From NCBI GenBank assembly GCA_030649025.1, contig JAUSGO010000022.1, forward strand, positions 9,023-73,022: 64,000 nt of DNA. Direction: 5' to 3'. Positions 3,156 through 6,920 of this stretch are shown in pieces. A program made the translations under genes and the position numbers. The notes beneath the pieces were generated by a model. The model worked only from the letters and a program-made list of their open reading frames with translations. It had not been told where the DNA came from and did not search any database. Origin of the DNA: a bacterium (lineage in GTDB: Bacteria > Patescibacteriota > Minisyncoccia > JAUYLV01). Positions within the stretch are counted from its first letter, which is position 1. Every line of letters starts with the position of its first letter.

Positions 3156-3185
3156 TATAAGGTCTCATCCCAGTGAATTTAAAAA

Positions 3186-3215
3186 AGGACCCTTTTTGGG
3201 GTCCTTTCGGTTTTT
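3186..3215. terminator. Bidirectional intrinsic terminator between the convergent 1365..3155(+) and 3236..3526(-) genes
   Basis: aaaaa-AGGACCC-tttttg-GGGTCCT-ttcggttttt: a perfect 7-bp GC-rich stem with a 6-nt loop, flanked by an A-run and a T-run. Confidence 0.7.
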
Positions 3216-3235: not shown

Positions 3236-3526
3236 TTATCTTCCGCCGTTTTCAAACTTCGGCGTAAGCACGACGAGGTCTCCCGCCTGAAGCACGGTGT
3301 CGCCATTGGATGCGCGTTCGTTCACCGTAGCGCTTCCGTCCGCCTTTTTGGCGCCGCCCACGGTCTTGAGCGCGTCTTCAACGGTCATTCCCGGGGTAAA
3401 GGGGAGGGCATGTGATTTGTCGCCGATAGTGACCGTTACCGCATTCGAATGCGGAGGAGCGACGGCAGTGGCGAGGGGGATTATGGGGGTTGCAGTTTTC
3501 GGTTCTTCCAATAGTGCCGATCTCAT
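3236..3526 (-). CDS. ThiS/MoaD-family beta-grasp ubiquitin-like protein (Ubl), C-terminal ...FENGG-R
   Basis: The ~65-aa core VTVTIGDK...MTVEDALKTVG...TVLQAGDLVVLTPKFENGG has the ThiS/MoaD pattern (GD-x-V-x-L-x-P-x-x-GG). The diglycine is followed by one extra Arg. There is a 30-aa Pro/Ala-rich N-terminal extension. It is the last gene of a 4-gene operon. Confidence 0.6.
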   Translation of the reverse strand: MRSALLEEPKTATPIIPLATAVAPPHSNAVTVTIGDKSHALPFTPGMTVEDALKTVGGAKKADGSATVNERASNGDTVLQAGDLVVLTPKFENGGR

Positions 3527-3548
3527 AAGGGTTTCTCCTTTTTTGTGG

Positions 3549-4232
3549 TTAGGATTTTTGACGCTCTTCCTGGCGGATGAGCGTCAAATTCTTGAGGTTG
3601 AAAACCAGACGTTGCCAGTAAGGCTCTTGCATGAGCCAATGCGTAAGTTGCGAGCCGATGAGCGAGGCGATTGCCATGTTCACCGGCAGGAATGCGTCGC
3701 AAGCAAGGTCCGGGTCGATGTCTTGCGCCTCGTGAAGATGTTTTTCGTAGAACTCAACATCCTCGAGGCAGGAGGGACGGACAGTATGTATTTCCATCCA
3801 TTGGCCTTTTGTACCCACGCCGGTTCGTGCGTCGAGATAAACTGGAATTTTGCTGTTCCAGGCTACCTTGCTCCAGATGGCTTTGCGGGATTCCATGGAA
3901 TCGACGCCCGAGATGACGATGCCGCTAAGTGTCGGGAGCGATTCGTTTGGAAATGAGCAGGCGTGTTTCTTTATAGCAATTCCGGTCAAGCATAGCACGC
4001 GTTCATGCGCCGTGTCAACCTTCGGTCTGCCCGCGTCCGTCGGTCCCCACAGGAGATGGTTTGGCACGTTATGGTCCTCTATGGCATCCGAATCGATGAG
4101 CGTGATATTCTCAAACCCGATCTTGGCAAGCATCAATGTTGTCGGACTTCCGATGCCTCCTGCGCCGATGACGGTTACGGGAAATACGATGGCGTCTATA
4201 GGCAGGATGCGCTCTTGTCTGAAGTGGTTCAT
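3549..4232 (-). CDS. ThiF/MoeB/HesA-family E1-like adenylyltransferase (minimal E1)
   Basis: Rossmann motif VIGAGGIGS. LIDSDAIEDHNVPNHLL matches the E1 D-x-D-x-(V/I)-E-x-SN-L-x-RQ region. IPVYLDARTGVGTKGQ matches the MoeB/ThiF ...PLVSGAAIRxEGQ ATP-binding segment. It overlaps the upstream JAB gene by 4 nt (ATGA coupling). Confidence 0.75.
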   Translation of the reverse strand: MNHFRQERILPIDAIVFPVTVIGAGGIGSPTTLMLAKIGFENITLIDSDAIEDHNVPNHLLWGPTDAGRPKVDTAHERVLCLTGIAIKKHACSFPNESLPTLSGIVISGVDSMESRKAIWSKVAWNSKIPVYLDARTGVGTKGQWMEIHTVRPSCLEDVEFYEKHLHEAQDIDPDLACDAFLPVNMAIASLIGSQLTHWLMQEPYWQRLVFNLKNLTLIRQEERQKS

Positions 4233-4948
4233 GTCTTTTCCTCCGTTCTTTCGCCAAGAATCTGTTCGACCGGTAAGATGACTGGGTCTCCCTCCGGCAT
4301 TCGGTGAGTGTTTTTACCCAGAATGCTTTTTGGAGAAGGAATGTGAAGGCCGGCTACGCGCCATCCCTCCCGCACATGTTGATTGATGTCGTCTCGGCAC
4401 TGTTCGGTCAGGGTTTCATCTGCTACGTTCATCCGGACAAAAAGCGGCAGAGCTAGGGCAATGCGCAGGGGACGGTACACGTCGAGTCGGCATCGGTAGT
4501 CGCCTTGCTTGTTAAGTACAAGGCTTACCATCCAGTCGTAGTATCCTTCGTAGTCGGCAATCGTTCCGAGGTCCGTATGCGAGAAATATGCCGGCATGGA
4601 AACGTGCGAATGCCATTGAAGGCGTATGTGCGAAGGGTCCTTGCCCTCGCGTATCATGCGGCTCACCAGGCAGTTGTACGCCATAGAGTCTGTTTCGGCG
4701 TGTCCTCCGGAGACGCGCTGGTCAAGGATGAAAGGGTTTGTGATATAGAGGGTGCTTCCTTCAACTTCCACGATGCCAAACCCGTTTATCTCGAGCGGCA
4801 TAAGATCTACGTAGCACTTGATCTTTTGCAGCGCTTCGAGTGTGATGACTGCCCGGGGGAAACCCGTAAGTATCAGGTCTTCTCCCGAAGGAACCGGTGC
4901 TTCAACAAGCGCAGCTCGCGTTACCCTTTCGCCGGATTCAATTTCCAT
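4229..4948 (-). CDS. JAB/MPN (JAMM) metalloprotease
   Basis: Perfect JAMM motif H113-S-H115-VSMPAYF-S123-HT-D126 (HxHx7Sx2D). It overlaps the E1 gene by 4 nt and the upstream gene by 28 nt. Confidence 0.75.
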   Translation of the reverse strand: MEIESGERVTRAALVEAPVPSGEDLILTGFPRAVITLEALQKIKCYVDLMPLEINGFGIVEVEGSTLYITNPFILDQRVSGGHAETDSMAYNCLVSRMIREGKDPSHIRLQWHSHVSMPAYFSHTDLGTIADYEGYYDWMVSLVLNKQGDYRCRLDVYRPLRIALALPLFVRMNVADETLTEQCRDDINQHVREGWRVAGLHIPSPKSILGKNTHRMPEGDPVILPVEQILGERTEEKT

Positions 4949-6438
4949 GGAACCTCCTTAAAATCACGTAATTTATTTTTATCATTTTTGTTGAGGTGCG
5001 TGATGCTCTTGAGTATGTGCACCACCGCCGAGGGGATATCGCGCTCGGCAAGAAGATTATTGATATCGCCCGTGAGATTGCCGAAGCAGAAACCGCCGTC
5101 ACTTCCATAAGGGTAATCTACTTCTCCATCTCCTTTTGCCAGATTGCGGATGTAAATGCCAAACCCCTCGCCAACGTTCCGGATAAAGTCGATGCGGAAG
5201 TTCCCTATCTCAAAGAGGCGTGAGTCGTACATGATGTAGAGCGTATCGGTAAAAACCGATATGCATTCGCCTTCCACGTTTATTGCCATAACATCAGGAA
5301 AATCCTCCAGGAGCCGGAATGCTTCTTCGAAGCGAGAAAGTTTCTCTGGGTCGGGTTTCGGAGGAAGCTTCTCCAGCTCCTCCTGGTCGCGTTGCGCAAC
5401 TGCTTCGTTACGTTGCGCCCCCGCTAGCTTTGTGCCAAGCGACTGAAGGTCGCCTCTGACGCTGCGTATATTCTCCTCAAGGCTCACAGTCGTTCTCCGG
5501 GCCTCCTGGACGCGGTTTGCCGCAAGCATTTTCTGCAGGTCAATATCATACCATCCCAGAATTCTTATCCACTGCTCCCGTATCGCATCGCGCCTTGCGC
5601 GAAGTTGTGAAACGCGCGCGTCGGATGAAATTATTTTTTCACGCCTCTTTGTGTCGGTGCGCGCAAGGGACGATGTTTCCAGGATCGTCTCGGGTTTTTT
5701 TGAGTTTGCAAGCCATCTCGGGCGAGGCAAGTCCTGAAGAGGCGGCACTGGTTCGACTTCCGGGATAGAGAGAATTCTGCCATTAGCGAGTACATGCCGG
5801 AATGTGCGCCTGAAATTCACGAACCATCCTTCTACGTGCCCCCATGTCCACCCCGCGCCGATTATGACAGCGAACACGATTATGGCTCCTATGGTGCCGG
5901 GGAAAAGCACTAATCCCCATGCGTACGGCCAAGGTTTCTTAAGAACATCAGGTTCGGGGCCATCATCGAAAATATACGCCAGGACCACAATAAGCGAAAA
6001 TAGCGGATAGAAAATCCACAAAAGCCACCAGTCGACATTTTTCCAGTATGAGTCCCAAGACGGTTCGGCACGAAACGCTTTTTCATACGGCAGGCGTCCG
6101 CGCATGACAGCGATAACGGTCTGGGTCTCTTCGCGGACTATTTTGCCGTATGCGGTAGTTTCATGCACAAGAGATTTGTCCAGAATGAGGGCAAGCTCAT
6201 TTGCGGAAATCTCTTGAGGAAGCGTTCGAAGGATAGCCGCCACGTTGTATGCATCACTATTCTTTGTTTGCGCTGTCGGCGCTACCAGTTCCTTATAGAA
6301 ATCGTTACGATCTCTGATTGAGGATGCATCTACAAAAAATTTAAAGGCGTAAATTCCAAAGCAGAGCACTGCCACAATAAGAGCGATGAGGCCGCTACGG
6401 ATAAGTTTCTCGAGAAAAGCCCTATGCTCGTTTTCCAT
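4921..6438 (-). CDS. Membrane protein (3 predicted TM helices) with a central coiled coil and a C-terminal UBC/E2-like domain (candidate E2)
   Basis: TM helices at aa ~15-35, ~135-160 and ~170-195. A coiled-coil / charged region spans aa ~250-345. The C-terminal ~110 aa has alpha1, then a 4-strand meander (VMAINVEGECISVF / TLYIMYDS / RLFEIGNFRIDFI / GFGIYIRNL), then YPYGSDGGFCFGNL in the position of the E2 HPN...G-x-I-C-L active-site loop, then a helix. This is UBC-fold topology with a candidate catalytic Cys near aa 451. It is the first gene of the operon, with AGGAG 8 nt upstream of the ATG. Confidence 0.5.
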   Translation of the reverse strand: MENEHRAFLEKLIRSGLIALIVAVLCFGIYAFKFFVDASSIRDRNDFYKELVAPTAQTKNSDAYNVAAILRTLPQEISANELALILDKSLVHETTAYGKIVREETQTVIAVMRGRLPYEKAFRAEPSWDSYWKNVDWWLLWIFYPLFSLIVVLAYIFDDGPEPDVLKKPWPYAWGLVLFPGTIGAIIVFAVIIGAGWTWGHVEGWFVNFRRTFRHVLANGRILSIPEVEPVPPLQDLPRPRWLANSKKPETILETSSLARTDTKRREKIISSDARVSQLRARRDAIREQWIRILGWYDIDLQKMLAANRVQEARRTTVSLEENIRSVRGDLQSLGTKLAGAQRNEAVAQRDQEELEKLPPKPDPEKLSRFEEAFRLLEDFPDVMAINVEGECISVFTDTLYIMYDSRLFEIGNFRIDFIRNVGEGFGIYIRNLAKGDGEVDYPYGSDGGFCFGNLTGDINNLLAERDIPSAVVHILKSITHLNKNDKNKLRDFKEVPWKLNPAKG

Positions 6439-6492
6439 TTCCCAATCTCCTTTTCAGTCTTTCGGAATATAACTCTTGTAAAAGAGCCTTGC

Positions 6493-6521
6493 ATCATAAC
6501 AAAACATAAGTTGAACGTCAA
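6493..6521 (-). promoter_or_regulatory. Sigma70-like promoter of the Ubl/E1/JAB/E2-like operon
   Basis: On the minus strand: TTGACG, a 17-nt spacer, TATGAT, then AGGAG, then the ATG at 6438. Confidence 0.55.
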
Positions 6522-6659
6522 GAGCAACGTGTACTTGCTTTTTTAAGGCCAGGCTGTTAACATATTAATTAACGACAATGGGATAGTAGCGGACTTGAAA
6601 AGCGAAATGTGGGCTTTCTTAGGTAGCAAGAAAGCTCGTTTTCTTTGTTTTTTTGCCGG

Positions 6660-6688
6660 TTGACGGAAAAAGAGAATATTGCTATACT
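6660..6688 (+). promoter_or_regulatory. Sigma70-like promoter upstream of infA, divergent from the Ubl operon promoter
   Basis: TTGACG, a 17-nt spacer (gaaaaagagaatattgc), TATACT, located 17 nt upstream of the infA start. Confidence 0.55.
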
Positions 6689-6704
6689 TCCCCCTGTATT
6701 TTTA

Positions 6705-6920
6705 ATGCCCGAAAACGCACTGACTCGAAAAGAAGGATTAGTTTTAGAGGCCCTTCCGGGGGATCTTTTTAAAGTGCGTTTTGAAGACGGGGCAGAGGCC
6801 TTAGGATATCTCTCGGGGCGCATGCGCATGAACCATATCCGAGTGTTGCCCGGGGACAAGGTTGATGTTGAGTTCTCGCCGTATGACCCGAAGAGGGGGA
6901 GGATCGTGAGAAGAAACTAG
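6705..6920 (+). CDS. infA: Translation initiation factor IF-1
   Basis: [70 protein letters not shown] is colinear with the IF-1 S1-like fold (HISGKMRKNYIRILPGDKV...YDLSKGRI). The start was chosen at the internal Met of the longer ORF. Confidence 0.85.

What the first reader, a model, noticed from the sequence alone, without database searches (positions are those of the whole stretch)
3236..6521. Four-gene membrane-anchored ubiquitin-like conjugation operon: E2-like membrane/coiled-coil protein, JAB, E1 and Ubl
Four minus-strand genes form a complete unit. The four proteins are the multi-pass membrane / coiled-coil protein with the C-terminal UBC-like domain (YPYGSDGGFCFGNL loop), the JAB protease (H113-x-H115-x7-S123-x2-D126), the minimal E1 (VIGAGGIGS; IPVYLDARTGVGTKGQ) and the ThiS/MoaD Ubl. 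The JAB-E1 junction shows ATGA coupling. A promoter (TTGACG-17-TATGAT + AGGAG) lies at one end and a bidirectional terminator at the other. Ubl+E1+JAB trios are known from sulfur-carrier pathways (CysO/MoeZ/Mec+, QbsE/QbsC/QbsD) and from Bil/Bub-type antiphage conjugation systems. A polytopic membrane protein carrying the E2-like domain on a coiled-coil stalk is not an architecture I recognise from described systems. It suggests Ubl conjugation targeted at the membrane or envelope, for example incoming phage or secreted substrates. The operon is wedged between ftsA and the ribosomal alpha operon, and it is divergent from the infA promoter.
Basis: partly seen in the sequence, partly recalled or inferred. 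Interest (0 to 1): 0.85.

Follow-up and report, generated by a model that had tools for sequence, protein, structure and literature searches.

The report
Membrane-anchored ubiquitin-like tagging operon
Four adjacent genes encode a complete ubiquitin-like protein-tagging kit whose E2-type enzyme belongs to an uncatalogued family, is anchored in the membrane here, and is shared between uncultivated bacteria and large phages.

Summary
Four co-directional minus-strand genes (3236-6438) encode a SAMP2/ThiS-type Ubl ending ...NGGR, a minimal 227-aa E1, a JAMM peptidase with an intact E...HxH...S..D motif, and a 505-aa protein. That protein has three TM helices, a disordered linker, a helical stalk and a 131-aa C-terminal domain.

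Relatives of this E1 almost always sit next to this E2-like gene (32/33 genome loci, 38/38 viral loci). Generic ThiF genes never do (0/19). No sulfur-pathway neighbours were found.

The cassette is common on large IMG/VR phage contigs, where the E2-like protein is soluble. It is also common in CPR and other bacteria, where it is often membrane-anchored.

It has the gene complement of Bil systems but different E1 and E2 architectures. I found no published description.

Verdict: a real, probably undescribed variant of prokaryotic/viral ubiquitin-like conjugation systems. Its targets and biological role are unknown.

The parts
6493..6521 (-). Sigma-70-like promoter TTGACG-17-TATGAT (extended -10 TG) upstream of the operon
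   Evidence: (10/12 match). This is a consensus match only. It lies in the 206-nt divergent intergenic region shared with infA.
6447..6451 (-). AGGAG ribosome-binding site, 8 nt before the ATG of the 505-aa gene
   Evidence: Read directly from the sequence.
4921..6438 (-). Gene for the 505-aa membrane-anchored E2-like protein (E2L)
   Evidence: ORF. It is identical to NCBI hypothetical protein Q7S09_02790. 211 homologues were found by exhaustive phmmer. The full-length model has pLDDT 80.8.
5782..6438 (-). N-terminal membrane module (aa 1-219): TM1, a roughly 60-aa helical loop domain, TM2, a WPW-containing short loop, and TM3
   Evidence: Hydropathy. Model helices 2-52, 61-121, 128-159 and 179-219. 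The module is conserved in 48 family members with 3 TM segments. K+R enrichment after TM3 favours a cytoplasmic C-terminus (inference).
5677..5781 (-). Predicted disordered Pro-rich linker (aa 220-254)
   Evidence: pLDDT is below 50 for residues 220-254. Sequence checked.
5350..5676 (-). Helical stalk (aa 255-363) carrying the conserved L..LG..I...Q..LA motif
   Evidence: Model helices 255-281, 283-327 and 334-356. L331, G335, Q342 and A346 are nearly invariant.
4948..5349 (-). C-terminal E2-like (UBC/RWD-fold) domain, aa 364-497. The YPYGSDGGFCFGNL loop is at nt 5074-5115 and the invariant Cys451 codon is at 5086-5088.
4229..4948 (-). JAMM/MPN+ (JAB) metallopeptidase gene, 239 aa. Glu53 codon is at 4790-4792 and the HxH...S..D motif is at 4571-4612. 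The gene overlaps the E2L gene by 28 nt and the E1 gene by ATGA.
   Evidence: Prok-JAB E=8.6e-4, below threshold. The best PDB match is the Caldiarchaeum Rpn11-like protein 6fju, E=8.5e-4. E53, H113, H115, S123 and D126 are invariant in 17 orthologues.
3549..4232 (-). Minimal E1 (ThiF/MoeB-type adenylation domain only), 227 aa. The invariant Cys178 codon is at 3699-3701.
   Evidence: Pfam ThiF 84.6 bits against a cut-off of 28.1. PDB profile hits to ThiF, Uba1, UBA3 and MccB at about 1e-14 to 1e-16. Conserved RQ, GxGxxG, DxD, K71, D111 and C178.
3236..3526 (-). Ubl gene, 96 aa: a SAMP2/ThiS-type beta-grasp with the C-terminal tail ...FENGGR
   Evidence: The profile of 23 orthologues matches P. 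furiosus SAMP2 at E=4.4e-13, with the terminal Gly aligned. The Gly is nearly invariant, with 0-5 extra residues after it.
3184..3207 (.). Hairpin AAAGGACCC-TTTT-GGGTCCTTT flanked by T-runs on both strands. It is a shared terminator-like element for the operon and the convergent 596-aa gene.
   Evidence: pattern match only.

Best explanation
The four genes form a self-contained ubiquitin-like conjugation cassette.

1. The JAMM peptidase trims the one or two residues after the conserved C-terminal glycine of the 96-aa SAMP2-like Ubl (...NG|GR). It probably also reverses conjugates.
2. The minimal, presumably homodimeric E1 adenylates that glycine and takes the Ubl onto its conserved crossover-loop Cys178.
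3. The Ubl is passed as a thioester to Cys451 of the UBC-fold domain at the C-terminus of the 505-aa protein.
4. That E2-like domain is held at the cytoplasmic face of the membrane by a three-helix anchor, a flexible linker and a helical stalk. It transfers the Ubl to amino groups of targets close to the membrane without a separate E3. The variable N-terminal part of the E2-like protein acts as the localisation or targeting module (an E2/E3 hybrid).

Proposed role: an accessory conflict module exchanged between large phages and their, mostly CPR, bacterial hosts. In this genome it is most likely host-side defence or superinfection exclusion acting at the membrane. The direction of benefit is not established.
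For: Components:
- The E1 is a true ThiF-superfamily member with conserved ATP/Mg residues and an invariant Cys at the ThiF C184 / MoeB C187 position.
- The Ubl profile matches the protein modifier SAMP2 at E=4e-13, with the C-terminal Gly aligned.
- Ubl tails end exactly at Gly or carry 1-5 extra residues.
- The JAMM catalytic residues are invariant.
[quoted passage not shown] Its invariant Cys plus HP[H/Y] motif align in register with the E2 active site.

Linkage:
- Family E1s scoring at least 150 bits are adjacent to E2L in 32/33 genome loci and 38/38 viral loci.
- JAB is present in 26/33 genome loci and 38/38 viral loci.
- Generic ThiF genes show neither partner in 0/19 loci.
- The same gene order is seen in loci reached from the E2L side.

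Membrane anchoring:
- The 3-TM module is conserved in 48 representatives.
- Positive charge is enriched after TM3.
- The architecture is seen in the full-length model.

Conflict role:
- Distribution is patchy across CPR phyla, NC10, Bacteroidota, Planctomycetota, Proteobacteria bins and one archaeon.
- There are 109 relatives on IMG/VR contigs of up to 223 kb whose flanks carry large-phage genes.
- Flanking genes are variable. They include a T4SS coupling protein and a transposase, and no neighbour is conserved.
- E2L paralogues and whole cassettes are duplicated in tandem.
- The E2L N-terminal regions are very variable, 143-831 aa in total protein length, with no known domain.
Against: - No biochemical step is shown.
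- No Pfam E2 model matches.
- The window protein has YPY where most members have HPY or HPH.
- The E1 lacks the Arg of the NLxRQ motif and the zinc CxxC pairs.
- The E1 has no ubiquitin-fold or other known E2-recruiting domain, so how E1 and E2L meet is unknown.
- The topology rests on hydropathy and a weak charge bias.
- In this window the cassette sits among housekeeping genes (infA/rpsM operon) with no defence or phage genes beside it, and its GC content is like the flanks. A housekeeping role in this organism is therefore not excluded.
- Some operons lack JAB although their Ubl carries an extension (L014, L015).
Confidence: 0.7

Rival explanations
1. The cassette has the same biochemistry but a housekeeping role. 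It would be a membrane-protein regulation or quality-control tag, analogous to ER-anchored Ubc6/UBE2J in ERAD or to SAMP/Pup tagging. It would mark membrane or envelope-assembly proteins for AAA+ unfoldases or proteases, or for altered activity.
For: - In the window the operon lies between core genes (a cell-division-region gene set and infA-rpsM-rpsK-rpsD-rpoA) and has its own promoter and terminator.
- GC content is similar to the flanks.
- The closest homologue (L002) is also among housekeeping genes: pth, mfd, lepB, hisS.
- Clp/AAA+ ATPase genes occasionally lie beside the cassette: L090 ClpB-like, and L022, L108, L163, L051, L052 and L078 AAA.
- Many CPR genomes carry the cassette.
Against: - The flanking genes differ in every locus.
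- Distribution across phyla is sporadic, with heavy presence on phage contigs.
- AAA+ neighbours occur in only about 6 of about 160 loci.
- No proteasome or Pup-type genes were seen.
Confidence: 0.15
2. The cassette is phage-derived and serves the phage. It would be a prophage remnant or moron used for host takeover, counter-defence or virion and assembly modification. The copy in this window would be a domesticated or decaying leftover rather than a host defence.
For: - There are 109 E1 relatives on IMG/VR contigs, and 38/38 strong ones carry the full E2L-JAB-E1 set.
- Their flanks carry RNA ligase, RNR, UvsX-like recombinase, DNA ligase and SbcC.
- The BFVD fold search finds uncharacterised phage proteins with the same domain (probability 1.0).
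Against: - The window copy has all catalytic motifs intact and its own promoter and terminator.
- No phage genes flank it.
- The membrane-anchored HPY subfamily to which it belongs is almost absent from viral contigs, where 0-TM HPH types dominate.
- No match exists in 50,697 deposited phage genomes.
- IMG/VR calls are predictions, and no structural hallmark gene was seen in the flanks held here.
Confidence: 0.25
3. The set is a sulfur-carrier system of the ThiS/MoaD/CysO/QbsE type. The E1 would adenylate the small protein to make a thiocarboxylate for cofactor, cysteine or tRNA thiolation chemistry. JAB would only unmask the GG tail, and the 505-aa protein would be unrelated or a scaffold.
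For: - The Ubl is of the ThiS/MoaD/SAMP2 class.
- The E1 resembles ThiF and MoeB as much as it resembles ubiquitin E1s.
- JAB + E1 + Ubl trios do this job in Mec+/CysO and QbsD/QbsE.
Against: - All NCBIfam equivalog scores are far below cut-off, for example ThiF 60 against 275 and MoeZ 40 against 647.
- There is no rhodanese domain.
- No cysM/cysK, thi, moa or tRNA-thiolation gene occurs in any of the loci inspected.
- The E2-like gene with an invariant Cys is nearly obligatory.
- The cassette occurs in phages.
Confidence: 0.04
4. The C-terminal domain is a non-catalytic UBC-fold scaffold (RWD/UEV-like) that binds the Ubl or the E1. Conjugation, if any, would be E2-independent as in archaeal SAMPylation.
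For: - SAMP2, the closest characterised Ubl, is conjugated without a known E2.
- The window protein lacks the His of HPN.
Against: - The Cys is invariant in 43 diverse domain sequences and in 39 full-length sequences. It sits exactly at the E2 catalytic position in two independent profile alignments.
- The HP[H/Y]...C.G motif is conserved family-wide.
- RWD and UEV domains characteristically lack this Cys (Iyer 2006, read).
Confidence: 0.1

Closest known systems
Bil (BilABCD, bacterial ISG15-like) antiphage systems, types I and II (Iyer 2006 operon types 6d/6c)
   Same: It has the same four functions in one operon: Ubl, E2, JAMM peptidase and E1. Cysteines are conserved in E1 and E2, there is no E3 gene, and distribution is sporadic and mobile. 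Some relatives of this cassette also have multi-beta-grasp Ubls, as Bil and Bub Ubls do (PMC11601596, PMC10557695).
   Different: - BilD is a multidomain E1 (inactive + active adenylation domains + mobile Cys domain; PMC11601596). Here the E1 is a single 227-aa adenylation domain.
- The type 6d E2 lacks the classical His and has a His after the Cys. The type 6c E2 is 'CEHH' (PMC10557695). This family keeps HP[H/Y] before the Cys.
- There is no extra alpha-helical protein gene.
- No PADLOC model other than the CBASS Cap2 E1 region matches.
- The E2 here carries long variable N-terminal regions, membrane-spanning in this window.
Archaeal SAMP2 / UbaA / JAMM1 SAMPylation
   Same: The Ubl profile is most similar to P. 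furiosus SAMP2 (E=4e-13). Both have a small beta-grasp ending in Gly-Gly, a minimal MoeB-like E1, and a JAMM peptidase that cleaves conjugates or precursors (PDB 5lda is the JAMM1-SAMP2 complex).
   Different: SAMPylation has no E2, and its E1 also serves sulfur transfer. Here an E2-like gene is nearly obligatory and there is no sulfur-pathway context.
Caldiarchaeum subterraneum-type E1/E2/RING/Rpn11 ubiquitin operon
   Same: It is an operon with separate Ub-like, E1, E2 and Rpn11-like JAMM genes. The window JAB's best solved relative is the Caldiarchaeum Rpn11-like protein (6fju, E=8.5e-4).
   Different: There is no RING E3 gene. The Ubl is ThiS/SAMP-like rather than ubiquitin-like. The E2 is far more diverged from eukaryotic E2s (no Pfam UQ_con match). 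The E1 is much smaller.
Bub (6E/DUF6527) and type II CBASS Cap2/Cap3 systems
   Different: Bub has Ubl-E2 and JAB-E1 or E2-E1 fusions, a DUF6527 serine protease, and Ser rather than Cys chemistry (PMC11601596). Cap2 is an E2-E1 fusion that conjugates a CD-NTase rather than a Ubl. None of these features is present here.
Eukaryotic membrane-anchored and hybrid E2s (Ubc6/UBE2J1-2; Pex4-Pex22; UBE2O/BIRC6 E2/E3 hybrids) and viral E2s (ASFV I215L)
   Different: Those proteins are tail-anchored or bound to a partner, with the UBC domain N-terminal. Here a polytopic N-terminal anchor precedes a C-terminal UBC-like domain. No sequence-level relationship was found beyond the shared fold.

Membership tests
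E2 / UBC-fold conjugating enzymes (superfamily level) | UBC/RWD alpha-beta fold: N-terminal helix, antiparallel sheet, C-terminal helices | tested here: met
E2 / UBC-fold conjugating enzymes (superfamily level) | Catalytic Cys at the conserved position after the HPN loop | tested here: met
   The Cys is invariant in A2 (43 sequences) and A6 (39 sequences).
E2 / UBC-fold conjugating enzymes (superfamily level) | HPN motif | tested here: inconclusive
   The family has HPH or HPY, with the Pro nearly invariant. The window protein has YPY. Asn is replaced throughout.
E2 / UBC-fold conjugating enzymes (superfamily level) | Match to a curated E2 sequence model (Pfam UQ_con, Prok-E2_A to E) | tested here: not met
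   No hit was found for the window protein or for 32 or 43 family members. There was a single UQ_con hit at E=0.093.
E2 / UBC-fold conjugating enzymes (superfamily level) | Forms a Ubl thioester and transfers the Ubl | not testable with these tools
   Requires biochemistry.
Bil (BilABCD) systems | Operon with Ubl + E2 + JAMM + E1 | tested here: met
Bil (BilABCD) systems | Multidomain E1 (IAD-AAD-Cys domain), as described in PMC11601596 | tested here: not met
   The E1 is 227 aa with a single ThiF domain covering residues 19-212. Orthologues are 213-260 aa.
Bil (BilABCD) systems | E2 of the BilB type (6d: no His before the Cys and a conserved His after it; or CEHH) | tested here: not met
   The motif here is HP[H/Y]-x(3-9)-C-[FLW]-G. 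The 6c/6d features were read. No PADLOC hit was found for E2L, JAB or Ubl.
Bub (6E/DUF6527) systems | DUF6527 BubE protease; Ubl-E2 and JAB-E1 (or E2-E1) fusions; E1 and E2 without catalytic Cys | tested here: not met
   There are four separate genes and no DUF6527 hit. Cysteines are conserved in both E1 and E2L.
Type II CBASS / Cap2-Cap3 | E2-E1 fusion next to a CD-NTase and an effector | tested here: not met
   Only the E1 region matches the Cap2 HMMs (best 5.4e-11, partial). No CD-NTase lies in the operon or its flanks.
Sulfur-carrier ThiS/MoaD-ThiF/MoeB pathways (including CysO/MoeZ/Mec+ and QbsCDE) | E1 reaching equivalog scores or carrying a rhodanese domain; cys/thi/moa/qbs neighbours | tested here: not met
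   NCBIfam scores are 4-16x below cut-offs. The E1 has no additional domain. No such neighbours occur in the window or in the related loci examined.
ThiS/MoaD/SAMP beta-grasp Ubl | Beta-grasp homology with a C-terminal Gly | tested here: met
   The profile of 23 orthologues matches SAMP2 at E=4.4e-13, MoaD at 4.5e-7 and ThiS at 3e-5, end-to-end through the terminal Gly. The single window sequence alone is sub-threshold (ThiS E=0.12).
JAMM/MPN+ metallopeptidase | E ... HxH-x7-S-x2-D zinc/catalytic motif | tested here: met
   E53, H113, H115, S123 and D126 are invariant in 17 orthologues. Pfam Prok-JAB scores 19.6 bits, below the 25-bit cut-off. The Rpn11-like 6fju match is E=8.5e-4.
E1 / ThiF superfamily | Adenylation domain with a Gly-rich loop, Mg-binding Asp, ATP-binding Lys, and a crossover-loop Cys | tested here: met
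   Pfam ThiF scores 84.6 bits against a cut-off of 28.1. G23/G25/G28, D47/D49, K71, D111, R116 and C178 are invariant. C178 shares a column with ThiF C184 and MoeB C187. The Arg of NLxRQ and the CxxC zinc site are absent.

The most novel reading that the evidence does not exclude
This operon would represent an undescribed major lineage of ubiquitin-like conjugation systems, with three features:
1. It has its own E2 family. That family keeps a classical-type HPx...Cys active site but is fused to long, highly variable N-terminal targeting modules, making an E3-independent E2/E3 hybrid.
2. It pairs that E2 with the smallest known type of E1.
3. It is shared between uncultivated large phages and CPR/Patescibacteria.

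In the membrane-embedded subfamily seen here, the enzyme would conjugate the Ubl at the inner face of the membrane. Targets could be incoming or assembling phage proteins, envelope machinery, or conceivably amine-containing lipids in an Atg8/Atg3-like reaction.
Probability: 0.4. Interest if true: 0.85.

Novelty: new variant of a known kind. Interest (0 to 1): 0.72.

Why it matters
Prokaryotic ubiquitination-like systems (CBASS Cap2/3, Bil, Bub) have recently been shown to be working conjugation machines. They bear on antiviral defence and on the origin of eukaryotic ubiquitin signalling.

This cassette would add three things:
- An E2 family invisible to current databases. It has at least 211 clusters at 50% identity but no Pfam, NCBIfam, PADLOC or PHROG model.
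- A minimal E1-E2-JAMM-Ubl set small enough (3.3 kb) for direct reconstitution.
- The first case I am aware of, with none found in the literature searched, of a polytopic membrane-anchored E2 in prokaryotes.

It would also show that large phages commonly carry full Ubl-conjugation kits. That opens the question of what phages ubiquitinate.

CPR bacteria have tiny genomes and few recognised defence systems, so a widespread conflict or regulatory module there is of separate interest.

Tried and rejected
- Word-index homology searches with the full 505-aa protein and with its C-terminal 141 aa found only the protein itself. With the domain alignment they found one extra protein. The family became visible only with the exhaustive phmmer search.
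- A genome-contig scan with the single JAB protein found nothing.
- The E2L domain alignment was too diverse for pattern-based locus scans. The E1 alignment was used instead.
- Foldseek against the PDB gave no significant match.
- The afdb50 library was unavailable.
- tblastn of the window E2L, the window JAB and a viral E2L against 50,697 deposited phage genomes gave no match.
- Pfam scans of ten long E2L proteins found no domain in their N-terminal regions.
- A recurrent AAA+ neighbour was considered as a functional partner. It occurs in only about 6 of about 160 loci, so it is not treated as part of the system.
- PRTRC membership was considered because of weak NCBIfam hits (PRTRC_ThiF 30.8 bits against 144.75; PRTRC_A E=0.13). 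It was rejected as far below threshold.
- Rfam and tRNA scans of the window were empty.
- The Burroughs et al. 2015 NAR paper was not held. The 6a-6e operon definitions were taken from Iyer 2006 and from the Corbett-lab preprints.
- The taxonomy of the window's organism could not be determined with the tools left.

Full report
**1. What is in the window**

Four co-directional ORFs occupy the minus strand between 3236 and 6438. In order of transcription they are:
- a 505-aa protein (6438-4921);
- a 239-aa protein (4948-4229);
- a 227-aa protein (4232-3549);
- a 96-aa protein (3526-3236).

The first two genes overlap by 28 nt. The second and third overlap by ATGA. The last gene follows after 22 nt.

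Upstream lie a sigma-70-like TTGACG-17-TATGAT site with an extended -10 TG (6521-6493) and an AGGAG 8 nt before the ATG. Downstream, a perfect 10-bp hairpin at 3184-3207 is flanked by T-runs on both strands. It is shared with the convergent 596-aa gene. These regulatory matches are consensus hits only, at about twice the shuffled expectation.

The divergent neighbour is infA (PF01176). GC content of the operon (0.51-0.55) is close to that of its flanks.

**2. The three recognisable components**

*E1 (227 aa).* It is a ThiF-superfamily adenylation domain (Pfam 84.6 bits against a cut-off of 28.1). It has no additional domain and reaches no NCBIfam equivalog threshold. In an alignment with six orthologues the following are invariant: an N-terminal RQ, the Gly-rich loop, D47/D49, K71, D111, R116 and one cysteine, C178.
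- C178 falls in the column of ThiF C184 and MoeB C187, the crossover-loop cysteine.
- The CxxC zinc pairs and the Arg of NLxRQ are absent.
- Solved relatives are equally distant: ThiF, Uba1, UBA3 and MccB at 1e-14 to 1e-16.

*JAB (239 aa).* It is below Pfam's Prok-JAB threshold, and its best solved relative is the Caldiarchaeum Rpn11-like protein. However, E53, H113, H115, S123 and D126, the JAMM catalytic set, are invariant in 17 orthologues.

*Ubl (96 aa).* On its own it is only weakly ThiS-like. A profile of 23 orthologues matches Pyrococcus SAMP2 at E=4.4e-13, and also MoaD and ThiS, end-to-end through the terminal glycine. Orthologues end exactly at ...NG or ...GG, or carry 1-5 further residues. 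The window protein ends ...NGGR.

**3. The 505-aa protein**

It has no match in Pfam, NCBIfam, PADLOC or PHROGs. The word-index search found only itself.

The exhaustive search of 1.84 billion representatives found 211 relatives, 39 of them below 1e-10. All 150 listed relatives carry the same roughly 131-aa domain at their C-terminus. The domain has an invariant Gly and Cys and the motif HP[H/Y]-x(3-9)-C-[FLW]-G. None of 32 or 43 members matches any Pfam or NCBIfam model.

Evidence that this domain is E2-like:
- AlphaFold2 on the domain alignment gave pLDDT 92.3 and pTM 0.86.
- Foldseek against the PDB was not significant.
- The family profile's nine best PDB sequence hits are all UbcH7 (E=0.11). 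The alignments run from the N-terminal helix to the active site and place HP on HPN and the invariant Cys on C86.

I conclude that the domain is a diverged UBC-fold domain with an E2-type active site. Confidence is good but not crystallographic.

Upstream of the domain, the full-length model (pLDDT 80.8) shows:
- a long TM1;
- a small helical domain (aa 61-121);
- TM2;
- a short Trp/Pro-rich loop;
- TM3;
- a disordered Pro-rich linker (220-254);
- a helical stalk (255-356).

This 3-TM module recurs in 48 representatives. Charge bias (K+R 3.7 per 15 residues after TM3, with an acidic N-terminus) favours an N-out / C-in topology. That would put the E2-like domain, and the E1 and ATP it needs, in the cytoplasm (inference).

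**4. Is it one system?**

Six loci reached from E2L homologues all have an E1 and a small Ubl directly downstream. Four of them have the JAB in between.

I also scanned one genome per GTDB species, and IMG/VR, with the E1 alignment, then scored all ORFs with family HMMs. The census gives the following, among loci with enough upstream sequence:

| E1 class (score against family HMM) | Loci | E2L adjacent | JAB adjacent |
|---|---|---|---|
| At least 150 bits, genome loci | 33 | 32 | 26 |
| At least 150 bits, viral loci | 38 | 38 | 38 |
| Below 100 bits (generic ThiF; Sphingomonads, Methanobacteria) | 19 | 0 | 0 |

No gene outside the four is conserved. Flanks include hypothetical proteins, SecA, a kinase, a T4SS coupling protein, a transposase and AAA+ ATPases. 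No cys, thi or moa genes were seen.

**5. Distribution**

Cellular carriers include:
- Saccharibacteria, Uhrbacteria, Buchananbacteria and Paceibacterota;
- Methylomirabilota/NC10;
- Bacteroidota and Ignavibacteriales, where the Ubl comes first;
- Planctomycetota, which carry a diverged form;
- bins labelled Gammaproteobacteria;
- one Thermoplasmatota archaeon.

One degenerate pattern also retrieved 109 relatives on IMG/VR contigs, many of 100-223 kb. Their flanks carry RNA ligase, ribonucleotide reductase, UvsX-like recombinase, DNA ligase, SbcC-like and ParB-like genes. BFVD contains uncharacterised phage proteins of 470-590 aa with the same fold (probability 1.0). Deposited phage genomes have none.

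Viral E2Ls are almost all soluble HPH-type proteins. The TM-anchored HPY-type, to which the window protein belongs, is found in cellular contigs.

E2L lengths range from 143 to 831 aa, with unannotatable N-terminal regions. Tandem E2L paralogues and tandem whole cassettes occur.

**6. How it most likely works**

Shown here by computation only:
- conserved catalytic residues in the JAMM peptidase, the E1 and E2L;
- a Gly-terminated SAMP2-like Ubl;
- obligate gene linkage;
- membrane anchoring of a subfamily.

Inferred:
- JAB exposes the terminal Gly and probably reverses conjugates.
- The E1 dimer adenylates the Ubl and forms a C178 thioester.
- The Ubl is transferred to C451 of E2L.
- E2L, held at the membrane's inner face on a flexible stalk, modifies nearby targets without an E3. 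Its variable N-terminal region provides localisation or specificity.

The patchy distribution, the phage carriage, the variable neighbourhoods and the paralogue expansion point to a conflict system. Whether the window copy defends the host, excludes superinfecting phage, or is a domesticated phage module cannot be decided. A housekeeping membrane-protein tagging role is the main alternative in this genome, because the operon sits among core genes.

**7. Comparison with known systems**

The gene complement equals that of Bil systems. Three things differ:
- BilD is a multidomain E1.
- BilB-type E2s have different active-site signatures.
- No PADLOC model matches.

Bub (fusions, DUF6527, Ser chemistry) and Cap2/Cap3 (E2-E1 fusion, CD-NTase substrate) are excluded by architecture.

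The Ubl and JAB are closest to archaeal SAMP2 and Rpn11-like proteins, but SAMPylation lacks an E2. None of the Iyer 2006 operon types 6a-6e fits.

Five full-text literature searches found no description of this E2 family, of a polytopic membrane E2 in prokaryotes, or of phage-borne E1-E2-JAMM-Ubl cassettes. The library lacks many subscription papers, so prior description cannot be excluded.

**8. Verdict**

The system is best filed as a new variant of a known kind (prokaryotic/viral ubiquitin-like conjugation operons) built on an uncatalogued E2 family. Interest is 0.72.

Noticed in passing
L089-L168 (IMG/VR contigs; e.g. L089 2946-8006, L090 5518-7639): The same E2L-JAB-E1(-Ubl) cassette is frequent on predicted viral contigs of up to 223 kb whose flanks carry large-phage replication and repair genes. 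Viral E2Ls are almost all soluble.
   Followed up: partly
L022 3386-7657; L089 2946-5804; L108 4753-6289; L027 1798-6478; L032 2052-11201: E2L genes are duplicated in tandem: three in a row in a Uhrbacteria scaffold, two in several phage contigs. Two complete cassettes lie side by side in two Saccharibacteria contigs. Two of the three L022 copies lack the Cys motif.
   Followed up: no
L090 7947-10466; L022 1484-3277; L108 2404-4173; also L163, L051, L052, L078: An 839-aa ClpB/ClpA-like ATPase lies directly downstream of the E1 in one large phage contig. AAA+ ATPases lie near the cassette in a few other loci. This is only about 6 of about 160 loci, so it is a hint of a link to unfoldases rather than a conserved partner.
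   Followed up: partly
L004 5824-6747; L005 2838-3803; L039 7744-8403; L040 7742-8401; L095 7918-8334: In some cassettes the Ubl gene is 138-321 aa, with two or more beta-grasp units (ThiS plus Ub-Mut7C hits, internal ...PKIQGN junctions) and coiled-coil-like spacers. This recalls the multi-domain Ubls of Bil and Bub operons.
   Followed up: partly
window 5890-5935 (aa 169-180 of the 505-aa protein) and 5398-5448 (aa 331-346): Two conserved motifs lie outside the E2-like domain. One is a WPW...W.YP motif in the short TM2-TM3 loop (P169, W170, W174, P180). The other is L..LG..I...Q..LA in the helical stalk (L331, G335, Q342, A346). Their function is unknown. The stalk motif is a candidate E1 or Ubl docking site.
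   Followed up: no
The 596-aa gene that actually abuts the operon has one predicted TM segment and only a weak GlxA beta-barrel hit (E=0.0024).
   Followed up: partly
window 6645-6920 (+): The listed infA ORF (TTG start, 91 aa) is probably too long. The IF-1 domain starts at residue 30, the Logan gene call is 71 aa, and a plus-strand promoter-like site (TTGACG-17-TATACT, 6660-6688) lies inside the listed 5' end. The real start is therefore probably Met21 (about 6705).
   Followed up: partly
L044 58-2536 (Thermoplasmatota archaeon MAG): An archaeal contig carries E2L (434 aa, 139 bits), a long JAB (327 aa) and the start of the E1. The first 60 E1 residues are 52% identical to the window E1. The cassette therefore crosses domains, or the contig is mis-binned.
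   Followed up: no
L019 3372-4706; L099 7646-8701: A T4SS coupling protein (TraG/TrwB-like) lies next to the cassette in a Bacteroidetes chromosome, and a transposase lies next to it in a viral contig. Both are consistent with mobility.
   Followed up: no
L009 and L010: Identical cassette proteins occur on short contigs binned to 'Gammaproteobacteria' and to 'Saccharibacteria'. Some taxonomic labels of the MAG contigs are therefore unreliable.
   Followed up: no
window 1-64000: No Rfam family reached its gathering threshold and no tRNA or tmRNA gene was found in the whole 64-kb window.
   Followed up: no
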